Shown: piece by piece, positions 330 through 54,926 of the stretch
How the letters are laid out: every line of letters begins with the position of its first letter
How positions within the stretch are numbered: the first letter of the stretch is position 1
Notes under the pieces: model-generated
Databases searched by the model: none
Told to the model about the DNA's origin: nothing
Seen by the model: only the letters and a program-made list of their open reading frames with translations
Made by a program: the position numbers and the translations under genes
Assembly: GCF_004010195.1 (NCBI RefSeq)
Contig: NC_057726.1
Span: 4,547,702-4,611,701, forward strand
DNA from: Chiloscyllium plagiosum
Taxonomy: Eukaryota
Direction: 5' to 3'
Length of the DNA stretch: 64,000 nucleotides

Positions 330-1215
330 ATGAGGATCAATGTAGATTGTCAGTGGGCAGAATGTTGGCAAATGGAGTGTTTAAAGTTAGAGGTTATCCA
401 CTTTAGCAGTAAGAATAGAACAGCAGAATATTATTTAAATGGAGGGAGACTTCAGAATGGTGTGGTGTAGACGGATCTGGGTGTCATTGTAAATGACTTC
501 ACAAAACATGGACAAACAGCTATGGCAAGTGATTACAAGAGCAAATGGAAAGTTGGTCTTCAGTGCAAAAGGAATGCAGTTTCAAAGTAGGGAAGACTTG
601 TTATAGCTGTGCAGGGCATTAATGAGACAAGTGGAGGACCATGTATGGAATGGGGCTCCTTACTTAAGGAGGGATACACTTGGGGTGGAAGCAGAGGTTC
701 ATTGGGATGAAGAGGTTTGCCTTATGAGGAAAGGCTGAGCAGGTTAGACTCTGGTGTTTTATGAGATGATCTCATTATAATGAAAGATTCTGAGAGGGTT
801 AGACAAGGTCATTCCCACCCCCACCCCCCCCCCACCCCCCACCCCACCCCCACCTTGGGACCATTGTTTTAGAATCTGCTTCAGTTTGAGATGAGGAGGA
901 ATTTCCTCACTGGGCAGATTGTCAATCTTTGGAATTCTCAAGGAGAAAGTTAGTCCTGCAGATCAGAGTCAAAGCGTGTGATGCTGGAAAAGCAAAGCCG
1001 GTCAGGCAGCTTCCGAGGAGCAGGAGAGTCGATGTTTCGAGCATGAGCTCTTCATCAGGAATCTCTACCCAGGAAGCAGTGGCTGATGCACCATTAACTA
1101 AAATCAAGGATGAAGGGGAACAGGCAGGAAAATGGAGATGTATCAAGTTCGATCTGTATAATCGTACTGAACAGTGGAACAGACTCCCGGGGTGTGGAGC
1201 AATTAGTTTGTAGCT
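330..1215 (+). mobile_element. Degraded CR1-like LINE 3' part, interrupted by a PLE terminus (about 940-1062)
   Basis: CR1-like 3' sequence; PLE terminus contains a decayed hammerhead with GAGC/GCTC stem II. Confidence 0.6.
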
Positions 1216-2383: not shown

Positions 2384-2810
2384 TGAAGGTGGAGGTGCCG
2401 GTGTTGGACTGGGGTGGACAAAGTCAGAAGTCACATGACACCAGATTAGAGCCAAAAATGTGTTGCTGGAAAAGCGCAGAAGATCAGGCAGCATCCAAGG
2501 AGAAGGAGAATCGACGTTTCGGGCATAAGCCCTTCTTCAGGCGTCGATTCTCCTGCTCCTTGGATGCTGCCTAACCTGCTGCGCTTTTCCAGCAACACAT
2601 TTTTAAGCTCTGATCTCCAGCATCTGCAGTCCTGACTTTCTCCCAGATTAGAGCCCAACAGGTTCATTTGAAATCACAAGCTTTCAGAGCACTGCTCCTT
2701 CATCACTTGCCTGTGCGCTTCCCTCCACTTCACCTGATGAAGGAGCAGTGCTCCAAAAGCTTGTGGATTCAAATAAACCTGTTGGACTGTAACCTAGTGT
2801 CTTCTGACTG
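2384..2810. mobile_element. Fold-back PLE-terminal element (family B) carrying a nested family A fold-back insertion (2454-2642)
   Basis: Inverted arms; 13-bp TSD CCAGATTAGAGCC at 2441-2453 and 2643-2655. Confidence 0.75.
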
Positions 2811-3042
2811 TACAGGGGTGACCCCTGTAGCTGTGGAATCATTTTCCGTGGTTTCAGTTACCCGTGGTTTACTGCAGACCGAACATATTATAGGGAACCT
2901 TCCAGAGCCAGGGACCAGGGGACTGCTGGGAAAGTAAGTTTCCCATTGAAATGAATGGGTTTGCACCTATCCGCGGTTCTGGGCGTCTGCGGTAGATTTA
3001 GGAATGTGTCCCCTGTGGGTATGGGCTGGGGGGACTACTGCA
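2811..3042. mobile_element. Tigger/pogo-like MITE (Tc1/mariner)
   Basis: TACAG... to ...GGGGGACTACTGCA termini; internal TTTTCCGTGGTTTCAGTTACCCGTGG typical of Tigger-type MITEs. Confidence 0.5.
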
Positions 3043-7903: not shown

Positions 7904-8104
7904 GGAGAAAGTGAGGTCTGCAGATGCTGGAGATCAGAGCTGAAAATGTGTTGCTGGAACAGCGCAGCAGGTCAGGCAGCATCGAGGGAACAGGAGAATC
8001 GATGTTTCGGGCATAAAAGAAGGGCTTATGCCCGAAACGTCGATTCTCCTGTTCCCTGGATGCTGCCTGACCTGCTGCGCTGTTCCAGCAACACATTTTC
8101 AGCT
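7904..8104. mobile_element. Fold-back PLE-terminal mini-element (family A)
   Basis: ~80-bp near-perfect inverted arms; 16-bp TSD CTGCTCGGTACTTTGA at 7888-7903 and 8105-8120. Confidence 0.85.
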
Positions 8105-8354
8105 CTGCTCGGTACTTTGACTATTTCCACGTGGCCTGTTATTGAAACTTTATTCCCCTGGCACTTTACTCTCTGGCATAAATTGCCACTATCAGTTTGT
8201 GATTTGGCACTCTTGCATTTATCCTGACGAGTGTAAGACCTAAAACTTTGGTGAAATGCTTCCCTTTTTGGAAATGTTCCACGTCTGATTCAAGGATGGA
8301 ATGATCCAACAGAGTGATCTGTGTGAAAACAAAAAAAATGCTGGAGACCAGAGT

Positions 8355-11084: not shown

Positions 11085-12140
11085 GAAGGACTGTAATTTC
11101 CCCTTCCATGTGGTTGACGATGCCCTCCAACACACATCTCATCCACACCCCGTACCTCCGCCCTCAAACCCCACCCCACGGTCCTCACCTTCTACCCTAC
11201 TAACCTCCGCATACACCACATCACCTGCCTACATTTCTGCCACCTCCAAACGGACCCCACCACCAGGGATATATTTCCCTCCCCACCCCTATCCGCTTTC
11301 CGCAAAGACCGCTCCCTCTGTGACTACCTGGTCAGGTCCATGCCCCCCCAGAAACCCACCCTCCCATCCTGGCACCTTCCCCTGCCACCACAGGAATTGC
11401 AAAACCTGCGCCCACACCTCCTCCCTCACCTCTATCCAAGGCCCCAAAGGAGCCTTCCACATCCATCAAAGTTTTACCTGCACATCCACCTATGCCATTT
11501 ATTGTATCCGTTGCTCCCGATGCGGTCTCCTCTACATTGGGGAGACTGGACACCTTCTCACAGAGCGCTTTAGGGAACATCTCCGGGACACCTGCACCAA
11601 TCAACTCCATTGCCCCGTGGCCCACCATTTCAACTCCCCCTCCCACTCTGCCGAGGACATGCATGTCCTGGGCCTCCTCTATCGCCACTCCCTCACTACC
11701 CGACGCCTGGAGGAAGAACGCCTCATCTTCTGCCTCGGAAACTTCAACCGCATGGCACTAATGTGGACTTCACCAGTTTCCTCATTTCCCCTCCCCTACC
11801 TTACCTCAGTTCCAACCTTCCAGCTCAGCACCATCCTCATGACCTGTCCTACCAGTCCATCTTCTTTCCCACCGATCTGCTCCACCCTCCTCTCCGATCT
11901 ATTCACCTTCATCCCCACCTCCATCCACCTATTGTACTCTTAGCTACCTTCTCCCAGCCCCACCCCCTCCCATTTATCTCTCCACCCCGGAGGCTCCCAG
12001 CCTCATTCCTGATGAAGGGCTCCTGCCCGAAATGTCGATATACCTGCTCCTCAGATGCTGCCTGACCTGTTGTGCTTTTCCAGCACCACTCTAATCCAGA
12101 CTCTAATTTCCAGCATCTGCAGTGCCCACTTTTGCCTATG
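11085..12140 (+). mobile_element. Penelope-like element 3' fragment: GIY-YIG endonuclease plus terminal repeat with hammerhead motif (~12005-12040)
   Basis: AIYCIRCSRCGLLYIGETGHLLTERFREHL...VAHHFN GIY-YIG with Cys-rich linker (C..NCKTC); frameshifted. Confidence 0.9.
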
Positions 12141-14020: not shown

Positions 14021-14132
14021 CTAAAAAAGCCTCGATTAGATCATGATTTGGAGATGCCGGTGTTGGACTGGGGTGTACAAAGTTAAAAATCACACAACAC
14101 CAGGTTATAGTCCAACAGGTTTAATTGGAAGC

Positions 14133-14165
14133 ACTAGCTTTCGGAATGCTGCTCCTTCATCAGGA
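14133..14165 (-). ncRNA. Minimal hammerhead motif, family B (AGCU stem III), within PLE-terminal element 14041-14165
   Basis: Reverse complement CTGATGA-A-GGAGC-AGC-ATTCC-GAAA-GC-TA-GTG; decayed copies near 2731-2765, 40590-40623 and 44620-44670. Confidence 0.6.
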
Positions 14166-19082: not shown

Positions 19083-19292
19083 TTAGAGACAAACAAAACT
19101 GCAGATGCTGGAATACAAGGTTGACATGCAGGAGGCTGGAAGAACACAGCAAGCCAGGCAGCATCAGAGTGGAGAAGTCGATGTTTCAGATGTAACCCTT
19201 CTTCAGGACTGGGTTCTACCTGAAACATTGACTTCTCCACCTCATGATGCTGCCTGGCTTGCTGTGTTCCTCCAGCCTCCTGCCTATCTACA
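19083..19292. mobile_element. Fold-back PLE-terminal mini-element (diverged family; similar copy at 30078-30242)
   Basis: Inverted arms CAGGAGGCTGGAAGAACACAGCAAGCCAGGCAGCATCA / TGATGCTGCCTGGCTTGCTGTGTTCCTCCAGCCTCCTG. Confidence 0.75.
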
Positions 19293-34441: not shown

Positions 34442-36370
34442 GTCAAGAGTGTGGTGCTGGAAAAGCACAGCAGGTCAGGCAACTTCCAAGGAGCGGGAAA
34501 ATTGACGCTTCGGGCAAAAACCTTTCAACAGGAATGAGTCTGGGAGCCTCAGGGGTGGAGAGATAAGTGGGAGGGGGTGGGGCTGGGGAGAAGGTAGCTG
34601 ACAGTGTAATAGGTGGATGGAGGTAGGGCTGAAGGTGATAGGTAGGAGAGTAGGGTGGAGTGAATTGGGAATCCCTCTGCTCCTATCTACTCCCAGTAGG
34701 ACCAGTTGTACCACAGAACACACCAGATGGACTCCTTCTTTAGAGACTGTAAATTCCCCTCCCACATGGTTGAAGATGCCCTTCAACGCATTTCACCCAT
34801 GTCCTGCACCTCCGCCCTCAAACCCCACCTCTCCAACCACAACAAGGACAGAACACTCCTGGTCCTCACCTTCCATCCCACCAACCTCTGCATAAATCAT
34901 ATCATTCTCTGAAATTTCCGTCACCTCCAAATGGACCCCAACACCAGGGATATATTTCCCTCCTCACCCCAATCCACAAAGATCATTCCCTCTGCGACTA
35001 TCTGGTCAAGTCCATGCCCCCCAAAAACCCACCGTCCCCTCCTGGCACATTCCCCTGCCAATGCAAGAATTCCAAAACCTGTGCGCACACCCCCCTCCTT
35101 ACCTCCGTCCAAGGTCCCAAAGGAGCTTTCCACATCCATCAAAGTTTCACCTGTACTTCCACATGTTATTTATTGTATCCGATGCTTCCGATGCAGTCTC
35201 CTTTACATTGGGGAAACTGGACGCCTTCTTGCAGAATGCTTCAGAGAACATCCCTGGGACACCCGCACCAATCAACCCCACCACCCCGAGGGTGAACATT
35301 TCAACTTCCCCTCCCACTCTGATGAAGACATGCTGGTCCTGGGCCTCATCCACCACCACTCCCTCACCACCCGACACCTGGAGGAAGAACGCCTCATCTT
35401 CCATTTTGGGACCCTTCAACCCCAGGGCATCAATGTGAACTTCACCAGTTTCCTCATTTCTCCTCCCCAATTTTACCCCAGTTCTAACCTTCTAGCTCAG
35501 CAACATCCTCATGACTTGTCCACCTGTCAATCTACCTTCCCAACTATCCGCTCCAACCCTCCTCTCCGAGCTATCACCTTCACCCCCACCTCCATCCACC
35601 TATTGAACTCTCAGTTATCTTCTTCCCAGCCCCACCCCCTCCCACTTATCTCTCCACCCCCAAGGCTCCCAGCCTTATTCTTAATGAAGGGCTTTTGCCC
35701 GAAACATCGATTGTTCCCTTCCACTCCACCAACCTCCGTACACATCGTATCATCCTCCGCCATTTCCGCCACCTCCAGGGATATATTTCCCTCCCCACCC
35801 TATCCACTTTCCGCAAAGACTGTTCCCTCTGCAACTACCTCGTCAGGTCCACAACCCCCAACATACCACCCTCCCCTGCCACCGCAGGAATTGCAAAACC
35901 TGTGTCCACACCTCCCCCCTCACCTCCATCCAAGGCCCCAAAGGAGTCTTCCACATCCATCAAAGTTTCACCTCCAATTCCACACATCATTTACTGTATC
36001 TGTTGCTCCTGATGTGATCTCCTCTACATAGGGGACACTGGACGCCTACTTGCAGACCGCATCAGAGAACATCTCCAGGACACCCACACAAATCAACCTC
36101 ACCACCCTGTGACTGAATATTTCAACTCCCCCTCCCACTCTGCCGAGGACATGCAGGTCCTGGGCCTCCTCCTTGCCGCTCCCTCACCACCCGACGCCTG
36201 CAGGAAGAACGCATCATCTTCCGCCTCAGGACCTAACCTCATTCCTGATGAAGGGCTTTTGCCTGAAATGTCGATTTTCCTGCTCCTCGGATGGTGCCTG
36301 ACCTGCTGTGCTTTTCCAGCACCACACTCTTGACTCTAATCTCTAGCATCTGCAGTCCTCACTTCCGCCT
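34442..36370 (+). mobile_element. Composite Penelope-like insertion: inverted terminal repeat plus two tandem GIY-YIG/terminal segments
   Basis: VIYCIRCFRCSLLYIGETGRLLAECFREH; second copy from ~35720; 14-bp TSD ATGGATTTGGAAGG at 34428-34441 and 36371-36384. Confidence 0.88.
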
Positions 36371-37409
36371 ATGGATTTGGAAGGCCCTGTCTGAAGATTT
36401 TCATTGAATTTCTGCACTGCATTGTGTAGGTCATGAAGGGAGTAGATGTGGTGCCAAACAAGTGGGCTGCTTTGTCCTGGATGGTGTTGAGCTTCTTGAG
36501 TGTTGTTGGAGCTGCACCCATCCAGGCAAGTGGGGAGTATTCCCTCACACTCCTGACTTGCAGATTGGACATTTTTGGGGAGTCAGGTGAGCTACCTTTT
36601 GCAATATTCCGAGCCTCTGACCTGCTCTTGTGGCTGTTGTGTTTATGTGACAAATCCAGGGAGTTTCTGGTCAATGGTAACAGCCAAGATATTGCTAATG
36701 GGGAATTCAGTGGTCGGATAATACCATTGAATATCATGTGTCAATGGTTAGATTATCTCTTATTGGAGATGGTCATTACATGGCAATTGTGTGGTGTGAA
36801 GGTCACTTGTCAGCACAAGCCTGGATATTGTCCAGATCTTGTTGCATTTGAACATGGACTGCTTTGGTATCTGAGGAGTCACAAATGGTGCTGAACATTG
36901 TACAATCAGCAAACATCCCCACTTCTGATGTTATGATGGAGGGAAGGTCATTGATGAAGCAGCTGAAGGTGGTTGGTCCTAGGACACCTCCTTGAGGAAC
37001 TCCTACAGAGATGACCTGGAGCTGAGATGGCTAACATCCAATAACGACGACCACCATCCTATGTGCCGGTATGACTTCAATCATTAGAGAGCTTTCCCCT
37101 TCATTCCAGTTTTGCTTGGGCCCCTTGATACCACATTTGTTTTTTGACTCATGAAATCTGACAATCATACTTTTTAAAAGTTTGATGTTATCTTTATGGA
37201 TTTTTCTCCAAACATTTTATGTGAGCTTAATGAAAGCATCTTTCCATCATTTGCATTGTAACACTGATTGTACAGCACAATAATTACAGGATGATCACTT
37301 GCTAGAACAGAGGTCAAAACTAGAATACCTACATGGTAGAAGTAGGCTGTTCAGCCCATCAAATCTATCCGTACATTTTCCTGTGGTTAACCCACCTGGC
37401 CTGGACAAT

Positions 37410-37680
37410 CAAGATCCACAAGCCTGACCACCCTGGCCGACCCATTGTCTCAGCATGCTCCTGCCCCACTGAACTCATCTCTACCTACCTCGACACTGTC
37501 CTATCCCCCCTAGTCCAGGAACTCCACACATACGTTCGAGACACCACCCACGCCCTCCACCTCCTCAAAGACTTCCGTTTCCCCGGCCCCCAACACCTCA
37601 TCTTCACCATGGATATCCAATCCCTCTACACCTCCATCCGCCATGACCAGGGCCTCCAACCCCTCCGTTTTTTCCTCTCT
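37410..37680 (+). mobile_element. Penelope-like reverse transcriptase fragment (motifs 1, 2, A)
   Basis: KIHKPDHPGRPIVSACSCPTELISTYLD...YVRDTTHAL...FTMDIQSLYTSI. Confidence 0.88.
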
Positions 37681-38420
37681 ACCCTTAGCACTATTAGTGT
37701 GTGCAACACTACCTCATGTGTGATAATGATTGTTTCTGGGTCCTCACCTACCTTCGTCTCTCTGTCAATTGCTGGCATGTTCTTTGTCTCTTCCACTGTG
37801 AAGACCAACAAAAAATACTTCTTAACTGCTTCAGCCAGTTCCACATATTCCATTACAAAATCCCCCTTCTCATCCTCTAAAGGACCAATGTTTACTTTAG
37901 CAAGTCTTGAGAAGATTTGTAGCTCAGATTGAGGTTCTGGATGGAGGTTTGCTTGCTGAGTAAAATAAAAATGTTTAGCCACTCTTTTTCGTTTTATGTT
38001 TTTATAACAACCTTTGATATCTTTCTTTATATTCTGAACTAGTTTATTCTCATAATCTAGCATACTTTTATTTATAACACTTTTTATAGTTTTCTGTTGA
38101 ATTTTAAAACTTTCCCAATCTTCCAGTTTCCCGCTACCTTAGCCACTTTATCAGCTCTCTCTTTCAATTTGATAGCCTCCCTTATTTCCTTACACACCCA
38201 GGGAAGATTACCCCTTTTCCTACATTCTGCCCATTTCACTGGTATGTACTTTTGCTGAGCACTGTTTGTCAACTGTCCCACCATAAAGTCTTTGCTTCCA
38301 GTCTACTTTAGCTAACACTTCCCTCATCCTATTGTAGTTTTCTTTGTTTAAGCACAGGACCCTGGTATTGGATTTTATATTTGTACTTTACATCTGTATT
38401 CTAAATTCAACCATATTACA
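37681..38420 (-). mobile_element. Degraded CR1 ORF2 fragment (EN-RT linker)
   Basis: DYENKLVQNIKKDIKGCYKNIKRKRVAK and VNIGPLEDEKG...YFLLVFT. Confidence 0.75.
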
Positions 38421-38734
38421 CATTTATTATTTAAATAAATGGTTGAAAAGACCTATAGTTTATCAAGTGCATAGGAGACATTTATGTAGAATAACATCCT
38501 CCCTTAGTCAATATTAAATTGACTGCTGCAGCTGCTGATACTGATTAATTTTGACAACCTATCGGAGTTAGAATTTTAATAATGACTCCGTATTGTGCAA
38601 CTCCATCTAGTGGTATGACTGCAAACCATCGCAGCCCAACAAGTAAAGGTAAACCAGAGACTTGACTTCATGAAAGTCTGATAAGTGAATCCTTGTCGTT
38701 GCAGACCAAAAGTCAGCTGTGGCTAGATTTAAAT

Positions 38735-38968
38735 ACCTTCATCTCCTCCTCCACTCACCTATTGTACTCTATGCTACTTTCTCCCCACCCCCACCCTCCT
38801 CTAGCTTATCTCTCCACGCTTCAGGCTCTCTGCCTTTATTCCTGATGAAGGGCTTTTGCCCGAAACGTCGATTTCGCTGCTCCTTGGATGCTGCCTGAAT
38901 TGCTGTGCTCTTCCAGCACCACTGATCCAGAATCTGGTTTCCAGCATCTGCAGTCGTTGTTTTTACCT
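38735..38968 (+). mobile_element. Young PLE terminal repeat with intact hammerhead
   Basis: Nearly identical, inverted, to 48855-49013. Confidence 0.85.
38838..38873 (+). ncRNA. Minimal type I hammerhead ribozyme motif in PLE terminus, intact core (family A)
   Basis: ATTC-CTGATGA-A-GGGC-TTTT-GCCC-GAAA-CG-TC-GATT: core, stem II, loop-less ACGU stem III, GUC site. Confidence 0.75.
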
Positions 38969-39291
38969 GGACAATCCAACTAACCTGCACATTTTTCTGA
39001 CTGTGGGAGGACTCAGTCACAGGAGAATAAATAAACTCAATTTAGGGAATCGAACCCAGGTCCCTGGTGGTGTGAGACAGCAGTACTAACCACTGAGCCA
39101 CCACATCTCTGTTGCGTCGCTGTAGTCTTACCAGACCATAGAGGGGCTGTTGTTTCATTAGTGATAAGTGACTGGTAGTGGTGGCCCTCAGGCGAGGGAA
39201 GAGGTTGAGAAGGAGACTATTTATGCTAACCTCAATCTGGTGATGGGAATTGAACCCAAGCTATTGGCATCACAGCACTCTACAAAACCAG

Positions 39292-40523: not shown

Positions 40524-40713
40524 TTAAAATCACACAACATGTGAGTGTGGAGAATAAGATTATAAGACAAAATCTTATTCTCCACAGCCACCAGATGAAG
40601 GAGCAGTGCTCTGAAAGCTAGTGCTTCCAAATAAACCTGTTGGACTATAACCTAGTGTTGTGTGATTTTAACTTTGTCCACCCCAGTCCAACACCGATGT
40701 CTCCAAATCATGA
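40524..40713 (+). mobile_element. Family B PLE-terminal element inserted into an older repeat
   Basis: AGATGAAGGAGCAGTGCTCTGAAAGCTAGTG decayed hammerhead; flanking direct repeat CAATGCCATG. Confidence 0.7.
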
Positions 40714-44269: not shown

Positions 44270-45330
44270 GTACATTTAGATTAAACACAGATTTTCATAA
44301 CAGCCATGTTGTCCCTGCAAGTCCAGTTTGTTCACAGATTTGGTTTCATTAATTTCTGTTGTTGACAAAGCATTTGCTCTAATGTTGTCCTTACCAGTCA
44401 CAGGAATGATTTCAAATTGTATGTTTGTAACATTAAGCTTCATTTCTTGTTGCAAAGTATCTCCAAAAAAAGCTGACAGATTCTCGTTTGTATACATGAC
44501 AAACTTTTAAAATTTGGTCTAACAAATTAACGTTGAGCCAATACAAGAATCAGTGTCTCATTCACTATCAGGTCAAAAATCACATGATACCAGGTTGTAG
44601 TCTAACAGGTTTATTTGAATAAACTAGCTTTTGGAGCGTTGTTTCTTCATCAGGTGCGCTGAAAGTTAGTGTTTTCAAATAAACCTGTTGGACTATAACC
44701 TGGTGTCGTGTGATCTTTGACCTCGTCCAACCCAGTCCAACACTGGCACCTCCCCATCCTTCTCTATTATTCAGTATTTCTATTGACGAACATTTGGTAT
44801 TTGTGAAAAATAACTGTCCGTTTGATCCCTTATATTTAATTTTATATTTTAGTCAAACAGCAGGGATACTGATGTCTCTGGCATCAGTAGCCAGTTTGAA
44901 TGACTTCCTATTATTCAGTGTGACTAAAACCAGTGCAGTAGTTAGCACAGTTTTGAAGTTGTCAAAGGCACATTGCCCTTCTTTTGTCAATTCAGTTTAT
45001 GCCATTCTTCAGTAAATCTGTCAGAGGAACCATTTCTGCACTGAATTCCGGAATGGAGTCCTGATAAAATCCACTTACGACATTCGCATTTTGACTTGGG
45101 TTAGGGGAAATCTAGTACGTCCCTTTATTCCGTTGCTCTGTGCACTATGTGTGAGCTTGTCCTGCAGTGTGGCCCAAATAAATTGCTTTGCTTTGGCAAA
45201 TTCGCTTTTTGTTAGATTTATGACCAAACTGATTCTTGTAGCCAGTCAAACAGTTTGTTCAAGATGTTCTTGCCAGGTTCGGCTGAACATAGCTAAGTCA
45301 TCAATGTAAACAATGCTGTTACACTATGCT
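44270..45330 (-). mobile_element. Degraded Gypsy LTR-retrotransposon RT-connection/RNase H, interrupted by a family B fold-back (~44570-44760)
   Basis: GFYQDSIPEFS, QCAFDNFKTVLTT...SFKLATDARD, FEIIPVTGKDNIRANALS match Gypsy GFYRKFVPNFS / FKLAVDAS / HIAGKDNVIADALS. Confidence 0.72.
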
Positions 45331-45747: not shown

Positions 45748-46160
45748 GTCAAAGAGTGTGGTGCTGGAAAAGCATAGCAGGTCAGGCAGTACCCGAGGAG
45801 CAGGAGAATCGATGTTTTGAGCATAAGCTCTTCATCAGGAATGGGAAATGGCCCAAAGGGGCTGAGAGGAAAATGGTAGGGGAGGGTGAGGATGCAATAG
45901 GTGGATGAAGTTGGGGATGAAGGTGATAGGTCGGAGAGGAGGGTGGAGCGGATAGATGGGAAGGAAGATGGACAAATGGGACAGGTCAATTTGGCACCAA
46001 ATTGGAAGGTTGGATCTGGGATAAGGTGGGGGGAGCAGAAATGAGAAGCGTGAAATCCACATTGATACCTTGTAGTTGGAAGGACACAATACTGAAGATG
46101 AGGCGTTTTTCCTCCTGGCGTCGGGTGGTAAGGGTTTGGCAGTGGAGGAGGCCTGGGACC
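45748..46160 (-). mobile_element. PLE 3' fragment with terminal repeat
   Basis: TRRQEEKRLIF-like GIY-YIG tail; decayed hammerhead CTGATGAAGAGCTTATGCTCAAAACATC. Confidence 0.8.
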
Positions 46161-46374: not shown

Positions 46375-46595
46375 AAAACTGAAAGAACTGTAAATCAGAA
46401 ACAAAAACATAAGTTGCTGGAAAAGCTCAACAGGTCTGGCAGCATCTCTGAAGAGAAATCCGAGTTAACGTTTCAGGTCCAGTGACTCTTCCCTTTGAGG
46501 GAGGGTCAATGGACCCGAAATGTTAACTTTGATTTTTCTTCACAGATGCTGCCAGAGTTGCTGAGCTTTTCCAGCCACTTCTGTTTCTTTTTTCC
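46375..46595. mobile_element. Fold-back PLE-terminal mini-element (family D); single arms at 7385-7500 and 53933-54070
   Basis: Inverted arms GTTGCTGGAAAAGCTCAACAGGTCTGGCAGCATC; decayed hammerhead TGAGG-GAGGGTCAATGGACCC-GAAATGTT. Confidence 0.7.
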
Positions 46596-47745: not shown

Positions 47746-48912
47746 GTTCACTCTTCAACTGCTTTTTGATCACCCCTTGAAGTTAGGTTAGTTTCTCTCG
47801 GAAACTCAAAGTAAAAGTTGAAAGTGTAGCTCCTGAGCTTTGGTTTATAAAATACCATTTAATCAATTTGTTACATTTCCTCCCCTGATGTCCATATGTC
47901 AGTTTTAAAGTACTGAATACTATGGACTCATTAGGTTACACGGGAATTCCATTATCCCAACCACTGGAAATTCCTGATAACAATGGTCAATGGGGAAAAG
48001 GCAGGAAAGTGGATGTGTGAAATGTCTGATCAGCCATCATCCTATTGAATGGCAGAGCAGGCTTGAGGGGCTGAATGGCCTAATCCTGTTCCTATTGCTT
48101 ACGGTCTTTATTAATAAGCTTATTAAATTTGATTCCACCTTTCCGGTATTCCAGATTGTGGTGGTAAACTGAAGATGTAAATTGTACTATTCCCAAGTTA
48201 TTCATTAATTCTTTGGCTACTTGTGACATAAGATCAAATCAAATTTAATATTTTTATTTATTTGGTGAAAGTATACCTTGAAAAGATGAACTATCGTTTC
48301 CAATATTATTTTGGATGTAAGTTTTTAATGAGGGCACTGCCTCAGGAAACTTGTTCAAGCATATATAATGGTTAGAGGATATTGATTCCCAATCCTAGTT
48401 TTATATAGAGGCCCTAGATATCCTGTTAAGACCCTGCTGAACAGTACTTTGAAAGCAGGCATTGGAGTTAAAGGCACAAGTTTAACTGATGCTTGGTGTT
48501 TCCCTACTGCCTGAAATAAATGCAAAATTTATTTTCAGGGATAACTTTCAGGGATCTATGTACATGTAATTTTGTAATTTTATGAGCAATTTGCAAAGTT
48601 TTGTTATAATACAGATGCATGATGGTCCATTGTAAACTCAGCAGTATAAACATTCCATCCATTAACACTGCAGGGCCCCTGGAGGCATAGAACATTACAG
48701 CGCAGTACAGACCCTTCGGCCCTCAATGTTTCGCTGATCTGTAGAACCAATATGAAGCCCATCTAACCTAGACTATTCCATTTTCATCCATATGTTTATC
48801 CAATGACCATTTAAATGCCCTTAAAGTTGGCGAGTCTACTACTGTTACAGGCATTCTGGATCAGTGGTGCTGGAAGAGCACAGCAGTTCAGGCAGCATCC
48901 AAGGAGCAGCGA

Positions 48913-48948
48913 AATCGACGTTTCGGGCAAAAGCCCTTCATCAGGAAT
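48913..48948 (-). ncRNA. Minimal hammerhead motif, intact, same sequence as the 38838 copy
   Basis: Reverse complement reads ATTCCTGATGAAGGGCTTTTGCCCGAAACGTCGATT. Confidence 0.75.
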
Positions 48949-49013
48949 AAAGGCAGAGAGCCTGAAGCGTGGAGAGATAAGCTAGAGGAGGGTGGGGGTG
49001 GGGAGAAAGTAGC

Positions 49014-53596: not shown

Positions 53597-54535
53597 TATC
53601 AGGAATACTGAGAATCAGTTCAATCCCTGTGATCATTCTGGTAATGGTTTGAGACAGCTGGGGTGGCTTGTCGGCTAATAGCCCTTATGAGAACCTTTCA
53701 GTGGACCAAACCCTGTCCACGTCACTCCCACTCAACCCAATCCCAATCAAACTCCTTCTCACTCACTTCCATTGTCCCAATCCCAATCTGATGTACTCCT
53801 CCTTTTAGTATTGCTGTAAGGAACTTGGGTAAAGAAATTGCTCCTGAATTCCCAGTTGGATCTATTGGTGAATTTCTTGTGGTTACAGCCTTTGGTTTGA
53901 TCATTTCACTGGAACAAAGGATTTGATTTGCTATTCTGAGGAAGGATCATCGGACCTGAAATGTTAACTTTGACTTCTCTTTACAGATGATGCCAGACCT
54001 GCTGAGCTTTTCCAGCAACTTCTGTTTTTGTTTCTGATTTACAGCATCCACAGCTCTTTCAGTTTTTAATTGATTTGCTATACCTGAGTGAGTCTGTAGG
54101 ATCTCTCCAAGGGATAATATCTCCTTTACCAATAGTCCATGTTTCATTTAACCAATCTAACACAAGAGTTCCACTGTTGAAAATAACTGCTTGACAAATG
54201 TACTGAGACTGGTGAGCAGTTTATTTGATTTTTTGTTTCCATGTATGAAGGAATTCAACCAACACCATTCTGACCCCCCCCCCCCCCCCCCCGTTTCCTA
54301 TAGAAACTTTTATCTAAGATTGATCATGTTCAGTTTTGAACTTTCTAGTGAAGCCCCAGTGCCAACATGTTGTTTGTTTTGGAAAGGGTGCTCTGCTGCT
54401 CCTTGAGTGGAGAACTCTTCCTGGCCTCACCTCCTAACCTCAATTGTAAGCTTACAGCTCCTTATTTAGGACTCTTCACCCCAAAGAAAATACCTTCTCT
54501 CTGCAGTAACAATTCTTTCAACTCCTTTCAGTCAT

Positions 54536-54706
54536 TCAAAGTTTGTGCGAAGATTTGTAGCTCGGGTGCTTGTTGTTGTGGTTCTGTNNNNNNNNNNNNN
54601 NNNNNNNNNNNNNNNNNNNNNNNNNNNNNNNNNNNNNNNNNCTTCGCAGGAGGCTCCCAAGCACTGATGATGTCGCCTAACCAGGGGACGAAACGTTTGC
54701 AACAAA
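54536..54706. mobile_element. PLE-terminal element (family E) spanning the N gap 54588-54641
   Basis: 16-bp TSD AACTCCTTTCAGTCAT at 54520-54535 and 54707-54722; carries a hammerhead motif. Confidence 0.8.
54661..54700 (+). ncRNA. Minimal hammerhead motif of a different PLE family, sense in TK2 intron 3
   Basis: GCA-CTGATGA-T-GTCGCC-TAACCA-GGGGAC-GAAA-CG-TT-TGC; stem I GCA/UGC. Confidence 0.7.
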
Positions 54707-54926
54707 AACTCCTTTCAGTCATCTTTAATGACATCCTATAGATGGCCCTTTAATATTGTGTACTCAGTGGATGATAAACATAGTCTGTATAGTTTGTCTT
54801 TCTGTTGTTAATCTGACAACCCAGGTATCTTTCGGGGAAATCTGCAATGCACTCACTCCGAGGCCACTACGTCACAAATACGTTTGTCTTGATAGTGATT
54901 ATGGAAATGTCGTTCTTCTTTGCATT

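What the first reader, a model, noticed from the sequence alone, without database searches (positions are those of the whole stretch)
38838..38873. Loop-less minimal hammerhead ribozymes in at least four Penelope-related families, with compensatory stem changes
Seen: CUGANGA + one extra nucleotide + stem II + GAAA + a 4-nt palindrome ending in the UH cleavage site recurs more than 10 times. Family A has stem II GGGC/GCCC (38838, 48913-, 2510-, 12005) or the compensated GAGC/GCUC (1030-, 45810-) with ACGU. Family B has GGAGC/GCUCC, AGCU and stem I CAC/GUG (2731, 14133-, 40590). Family D has GGGUC/GACCC (46495). Family E has GUC..CC/GG..GAC (54661). Established: PLEs carry minimal type I hammerheads whose short palindromic stem III cleaves as a dimer, and an extra nucleotide between A9 and G10.1 is tolerated in a viroid hammerhead. 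Inference: several distinct shark PLE lineages keep the same ribozyme architecture, and intact copies may still self-cleave.
Basis: partly seen in the sequence, partly recalled or inferred. Interest (0 to 1): 0.72.

Follow-up and report, generated by a model that had tools for sequence, protein, structure and literature searches.

The report
Shark Penelope retrotransposon hammerhead ribozymes
These are real, very abundant copies of the tiny self-cutting RNA motif already known from the ends of Penelope-like jumping genes; the individual copies are decaying leftovers, but their ends suggest the motif likely sits in the first few dozen letters of the element's RNA and is usually copied uncut.

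Summary
The motif is real: 9 strict cores in the window against 0.07 in shuffles, and about 3x10^5 genome-wide by extrapolation. It is the known minimal type I hammerhead of Penelope-like element pLTRs (PMC4209133). Families A, B, D and E all lie behind GIY-YIG-type coding DNA; long RT+EN copies exist for A and E. A and D are sisters, so there are three lineages. In family E the 'extra nucleotide' is the U of the ORF's first AUG. The focal copy is the 3' end of a composite insertion that carried 1.06 kb of host DNA from another contig. The scan had already noted the junction pattern on other DNA. Cleavage was not tested.

The parts
38838..38873 (+). Focal minimal type I hammerhead, family A; predicted cut after 38869; stem I is 2 bp, a U-U mismatch and one more pair
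38735..38965 (+). Family A pLTR stub: TATA-like box, predicted start at 38838, hammerhead, tail
37676..38734 (+). Captured host DNA (LINE piece plus unique DNA), 99% identical with the stub to a locus on contig C33
37411..37675 (+). Family A reverse-transcriptase fragment at the 5' end of the composite insertion
37400..37410 (+). Left copy of the 11-bp target-site duplication of the composite insertion
38966..38976 (+). Right copy of the 11-bp target-site duplication
11089..12093 (+). Family A 3' fragment with Zn-linker and GIY-YIG frame, hammerhead at 12005-12040 (palindrome decayed)
34745..36330 (+). Family A fragments with two hammerheads (35673-35717 decayed; 36241-36276)
48853..49013 (-). 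Family A stub with intact hammerhead, 160 of 161 bases identical to the focal stub
2416..2643 (.). Head-to-head family A pair; predicted to fold as one long hairpin that locks the cut site
7904..8110 (.). Head-to-head family A pair, both arms truncated inside the hammerhead
975..1064 (-). Family A, GAGC/GCUC subfamily; palindrome decayed
45754..45843 (-). Family A, GAGC/GCUC subfamily; G12 and palindrome decayed
19120..19291 (.).
2643..2811 (.). Head-to-head family B pair; each arm has one core change
14041..14165 (-). Family B stub, core intact, stem I lost
40582..40713 (+). Family B stub, U4 changed
44570..44758 (.). Head-to-head family B pair, decayed
46381..46592 (.). Head-to-head family D pair; first box broken
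53934..54059 (+). Family D stub, core intact, stem II and palindrome decayed
54520..54722 (.). Family E insertion: inverted tail, then intact hammerhead 54661-54700 on +, 16-bp target-site duplication at both ends

Best explanation
These motifs are the minimal type I hammerheads of the terminal repeats of several Penelope-like retrotransposon lineages, conserved between lineages and decaying neutrally in single copies, and they likely occupy the first 30-45 nt of the element's transcript and are usually reverse-transcribed uncut. Shown: motif, link to GIY-YIG/RT coding DNA, compensation between lineages, neutral decay, pile-up of 5' ends at the first base of stem I, and a family E reading frame that starts at A9-U-G10.1. 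Inferred (about 0.8): the pile-up is the transcription start; RT starts internally in the tail, as shown for Anolis Poseidon, so the first tail of a transcript gives a ~100-nt stub and the second gives a long copy. Inferred (about 0.5): a lone motif has no stem III and would not cut; cutting would need two motifs paired through ACGU or AGCU, or help from the element's protein, and would trim tandem or read-through RNA to unit length while removing the cap (family A) or cap plus start codon (family E).
For: Motif above chance. GIY-YIG Pfam E=5e-4 upstream of 12005; GIY-YIG-type frames for B, D, E; close shark proteins carry RT and GIY-YIG. Family E full-length copy L261: two direct 534-bp repeats 2503 nt apart, each with the motif; 837 codons from A9 to the stop in the next stem II, with three in-frame stops in L261 and in L265. 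Family A: ATG 164 nt after C3; of 20 loci with the ORF start 7 reach the motif, 4 with an upstream pLTR, 2 starting at -4, 1 at about +8. 5' ends: 119 of 199 A-type arms at -10..+9, 56 at -5..-2; 36 of 67 B arms at -12..+8; contigs of other runs show joints into 38833-38841. Pair 10.2-11.2: GC 142, AU 6, AC 6, GU 3 in A, p=3.7e-6; 33/7/4/2 in D, p=1.8e-4. Eleven representatives: 86% of cells paired, 27 double changes against 9.6 shuffled, 0 of 500, slid controls at most 46%. Neutral decay: 38/1148 against 126/3080; G12>A 13 against C11.1>U 14.
Against: No cleavage or start site was measured. The cap-derived G test is inconclusive (A 11 G against 6 A, p=0.14; D 5 against 1, p=0.058). Sequence upstream of -5 differs among subfamilies, so some 5' ends could be alignment breaks; the listed flanks mostly look unrelated. 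Family E does not show the pile-up in the random sample (0 of 9 near the motif), though two long copies start at -7 and 0. Stem I of the focal copy has a predicted pairing probability of 0.02-0.03 as a monomer. In one search the number of pairs with a double change (6 against 5.4, 261 of 500) does not exceed shuffles; rows were hand-picked and related. No RT-bearing copy of B or D was sought.
Confidence: 0.85

Rival explanations
1. The 5' ends pile up because RT stalls or jumps at the folded hammerhead, or at a dimer of two hammerheads, not because the RNA begins there.
For: Junctions of 47 listed head-to-head pairs (one row duplicated; 40 distinct types) mostly sit at the first box, five with the same 3-nt microhomology.
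Against: The peak lies just past the 5' edge of the fold, where RT has already passed it; it sits about 30 nt behind TATA-like boxes in A, B and D; two near-full-length A copies also start at -4.
Confidence: 0.15
2. The ribozyme cuts in vivo often enough that cut RNAs serve as templates, and the excess of 5' ends just behind the cut site records this.
For: 29 starts at +28..+38 against 18 at +10..+27 (p=8e-4, window end chosen after seeing the data; +28..+32 p=0.018). One low-depth contig joins exactly at the family E cut site.
Against: The excess is flat over 11 nt with no peak at +28, unlike the sharp peak at -4/-3; a stall at the 3' foot of the fold predicts the same. No pile-up of read starts or ends in one single-cell poly(A) run, which is ill suited. 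PMC11167929 found no reads at the Anolis cut site.
Confidence: 0.3
3. The fold is kept as a protein-binding or promoter-proximal element and catalysis no longer matters in family A.
For: The commonest A subfamilies have U-U at 2.3-1.3 (82 of 109 copies). Cleavage is dispensable for insertion in vitro (PMC11167929); Naiad elements thrive without the motif (PMC8557442).
Against: The first box is intact in all 14 lineage consensuses while only the free position N7 takes U, A or G (partly imposed by the descriptor), and the homology-collected A copies vary at N7 and loop II but not at catalytic positions.
Confidence: 0.15
4. The copies are a domesticated or host-selected set of ribozymes.
For: 36 of 115 family A copies are fully intact.
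Against: Core and tail decay at the same rate and the lethal G12>A is as common as the tolerated C11.1>U.
Confidence: 0.03

Closest known systems
min-HHR of metazoan Penelope-like elements (Cervera and de la Pena 2014, PMC4209133; Xena, Poseidon, Neptune of fishes, coelacanth, Xenopus)
   Same: Type I core without stem III loop, palindromic 15.2-16.2, extra nucleotide between 9 and 10.1, G10.1-C11.1, several consensus families per genome with compensatory changes, mostly solo truncated copies, opposite-strand pairs.
   Different: Shark genome (not named in the parts read; one of three supplement files could not be searched); shorter stem II (4-6 bp) and stem I (2-4 bp); about 1-3x10^5 motifs by extrapolation against 4,000 and 9,000 reported, with a different descriptor.
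Poseidon of Anolis carolinensis, PAc (PMC11167929)
   Same: [quoted passage not shown]
   Different: Family E is tested here only by sequence; family A has its ATG 164 nt downstream, outside the motif.
pLTR-mediated capture of host DNA in Adineta vaga (PMC3846280; reviewed in PMC6431247)
   Same: Host sequence moved in trans with pLTR sequence as the cis element and a new target-site duplication.
   Different: Here the donor locus is identifiable, the captured DNA lies upstream of a single non-coding stub, and the 5' side is an RT fragment, not a second pLTR.
Non-LTR retrozymes (bioRxiv 10.64898/2026.07.22.740005)
   Same: Type I hammerheads derived from Penelope pLTRs; reported in one chondrichthyan genome.
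   Different: Retrozymes are tandem arrays; the copies here are dispersed stubs, head-to-head pairs or element ends.

Membership tests
Minimal type I hammerhead of PLEs | CUGANGA and GAAA boxes with a UH site | tested here: met
Minimal type I hammerhead of PLEs | No stem III loop; palindromic 15.1-16.1 | tested here: met
   ACGU in A, C, D, E, F, G after allowing CpG decay; AGCU in B
Minimal type I hammerhead of PLEs | Extra nucleotide between A9 and G10.1; G10.1-C11.1 pair | tested here: met
   68 of 71 strict hits have the extra base; pair table
Minimal type I hammerhead of PLEs | Stems I and II supported by covariation | tested here: met
   lineages are related and one measure of five did not separate from shuffles twice over (pairs, pair types)
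Minimal type I hammerhead of PLEs | Self-cleavage as a dimer or with protein help | not testable with these tools
   No dimer fold was computed; reads were uninformative
EN+ Penelope-like elements | One ORF with RT and C-terminal GIY-YIG | tested here: met
   Families A and E; copies examined carry stops or frameshifts
EN+ Penelope-like elements | One ORF with RT and C-terminal GIY-YIG, families B and D | tested here: inconclusive
   GIY-YIG-type frames only; Pfam gave no hit for the B fragment; RT not sought
EN+ Penelope-like elements | pLTRs in partial tandem or inverted, with a tail on one end | tested here: met
Neptune clade (A, D) | CX2-5CxxC linker before the endonuclease | tested here: met
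   Present in A; partly seen in broken D copies
Penelope/Poseidon clade (E) | No Zn linker; RT groups with Poseidon references | tested here: inconclusive
   Linker absent and AUG placed as in PAc; no tree with reference elements was built
Non-LTR retrozymes | Tandem repeats with a hammerhead in each unit | tested here: not met
   Window copies are dispersed or head-to-head

The most novel reading that the evidence does not exclude
The Penelope hammerhead is a 5'-end switch: it fills the first 32 nt of the family A transcript and contains the start codon in family E, so pairing of two RNAs would cut off cap and AUG and turn messenger into template or waste. The excess of genomic 5' ends just behind the cut site would then be a fossil record of such cuts in the germ line, and dead stubs would act as handles that move upstream host DNA, as at the focal locus.
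Probability: 0.25. Interest if true: 0.65.

Novelty: new member of a known kind. Interest (0 to 1): 0.33.

Why it matters
The motif itself is known. What the hammerhead does for endonuclease-bearing Penelope elements is still called unclear (PMC8557442). This genome offers about 10^5 natural copies whose ends place the motif at the predicted transcript start, show that it is mostly copied uncut, and point to constructs that can test a decapping or trimming role. The focal locus is also a clean donor-daughter case of host DNA moved by a non-coding stub.

Tried and rejected
Rfam scan: no hammerhead family. An apparent A-plus-B chimeric junction at L301 proved to be a later B insertion with its own short duplication. 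An extended stem I from upstream-to-tail complementarity was considered by eye and dropped, because the upstream bases lie before the predicted start; it was not computed. Cap-G test inconclusive. Family D 5'-end list is mixed with A copies at +39 and beyond and part of the output was cut, so it was not counted. Run search: no RNA holder listed; one raw single-cell run laid 587 and 331 reads with no start or end pile-up, a second laid none. The 14-lineage shuffle (91 of 98 cells paired against 47.5) is partly circular for stem III and pair II.2 and is not relied on. The 14-row alignment shifted the three B rows by one column, so omits them. No covariance model, tree or dimer fold was made. Literature searches for Penelope+hammerhead+shark (4 papers), +truncation+inverted (4 papers, 3 listed) and +transcription start+pLTR (3 papers, 2 listed) showed no paper on shark motifs or on a start at stem I; subscription papers are not covered.

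Full report
Observation. The focal stretch is a complete minimal type I hammerhead with its predicted cut after 38869. Nine strict cores occur in the window against 0.07 in 30 shuffles, and 123 in 1,347,503 sampled bases against 0 in the reversed sequence; an earlier, slightly looser scan of the first 80 stretches gave 71 against 2. The 140 stretches were taken at round coordinates on contigs C1-C34, so the extrapolation (about 3.2x10^5 strict cores; about 1x10^5 with a Watson-Crick palindrome and at least 3 bp of stem I) is rough. Several cited copies are decayed or truncated; 3 of 11 keep core, palindrome and stem I.

What carries the motif. Upstream of the family A copy at 12005 lies a frame with a C-x4-C-x2-C linker and a GIY-YIG domain. 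Longer copies of B, D and E end in similar frames. The nearest database proteins are from bamboo and epaulette sharks at 85-90% identity and carry RT and GIY-YIG, so the genome is shark-like. Searches with two of them returned long copies. L261 has two direct repeats 2503 nt apart, each with the motif; its frame starts at A9-U-G10.1 and runs 837 codons to a stop in the next stem II, with three internal stops, as in L265. In family A the ATG lies 164 nt after C3. A, C and D share a tail; E has relatives F and G; B stands apart. The clade names rest on the linker rule in PMC8557442 (passages), not on a tree.

Compensation and selection. In family A, pair 10.2-11.2 is GC 142, AU 6, AC 6, GU 3 among 157 of 187 copies (p=3.7e-6); in D it is 33, 7, 4, 2 (including non-random loci). 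Each reflects one or two old events. Across 11 hand-picked representatives 86% of stem cells pair and 27 show double changes against 9.6 in shuffles, while the counts of covarying pairs and pair types do not exceed shuffles. Single copies are not protected: of 254 profile hits, 115 full family A copies show 3.3% change at ten non-CpG core positions and 4.1% in the tail (five diagnostic columns dropped; p=0.28), and G12>A equals C11.1>U. Selection acts on source elements, not on insertions.

Where copies begin. Of 251 A-type arms in the sample, 233 passed the filters; 17 next to N and 17 running to the edge of the 200-nt test window were set aside. Of the other 199, 119 start at -10..+9 from C3 and 56 at -5..-2. 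B gives 36 of 67 at -12..+8. TATA-like boxes lie about 30 nt upstream and an initiator-like sequence (consensus recalled) has its A at -4 in A and D. Two near-full-length A copies start at -4, and contigs of other runs join into 38833-38841. I took the start-site reading from earlier scan notes and tested it here; the cap-G prediction was inconclusive. With the internal RT start shown for PAc (PMC11167929), this explains the mass of ~100-nt stubs and implies that most templates were uncut. A weaker, flat excess at +28..+38 may record cut templates or a stall.

The focal locus. The stub ends a 1.55-kb insertion with an 11-bp target-site duplication: RT fragment, 1.06 kb of host DNA, then the stub. 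The same 1293 bp, with 12 differences, lie on C33, where the host LINE runs on through the junction and the stub has its own duplication on both sides. The unique part has only these two full matches among 40 scored candidates, and one DNA run shows only the C33-type variants (presence, not absence). C33 is thus the donor. The likeliest route is RT restarting in the donor's tail on a host read-through RNA, passing the uncut motif and switching to element RNA; a DNA-level event or misassembly is not excluded, and the differences cluster unevenly. Capture of host DNA by pLTRs in trans is described (PMC3846280, PMC6431247; passages).

Mechanism. A lone motif lacks stem III, and the focal monomer is predicted to keep stem II but not stem I. 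Published monomers did not cut, dimers cut weakly (PMC4209133, parts 1-2 of 4 read), and PAc needed its protein. I commit to conditional cleavage by pairing or protein help that trims tandem RNA and strips the cap, plus the AUG in family E. This role is inferred.

Comparison and verdict. Every architectural feature in the finding is in PMC4209133. The 2026 preprint (part 1 of 5 and passages) reports hammerhead retrozymes in one chondrichthyan; PMC6155905 (passages) adds nothing on sharks. The scan has made the junction reading on other DNA. New member of a known kind; interest 0.33.

Noticed in passing
window 37400-38976; L002:441-1734: Composite insertion (RT fragment, 1.06 kb host DNA, stub) with an identifiable donor on contig C33.
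   Followed up: yes
L261:1183-3700; window 54670-54672: In family E the hammerhead codes both the ORF's first AUG (A9, extra U, G10.1) and, in another frame, the last codons and stop of the previous unit.
   Followed up: yes
window 38773-38933 and 48853-49013: Two convergent family A stubs 10 kb apart are 160 of 161 bases identical, closer than the focal stub is to its donor; conversion, a third template or gap filling.
   Followed up: no
L122:9517-9554: A young family A subfamily has a perfect 4-bp stem I, unlike the U-U of the commonest ones; best candidate for an assay.
   Followed up: partly
L266:1368-1411, L023:967-1010: Further Poseidon-like families F and G; pair 2.3-1.3 is G-C in E, C-G in F and U-A in G.
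   Followed up: partly
L190, L162; joints 38874-38879 back to 38833-38838: Short tandem duplications of the hammerhead at 5' junctions, which could form a double hammerhead in cis.
   Followed up: no
window 2390-2811: A family A head-to-head pair lies inside the tail of a family B head-to-head pair.
   Followed up: no
window 53967-53990 (family D tail): The D tail has a pyrimidine run ending in CAG then ATG, like a 3' splice site; not conserved in A.
   Followed up: no
one search hits P0008, P0019, P0021: Predicted host proteins of related sharks include long family E pieces; exonisation or annotation error.
   Followed up: no
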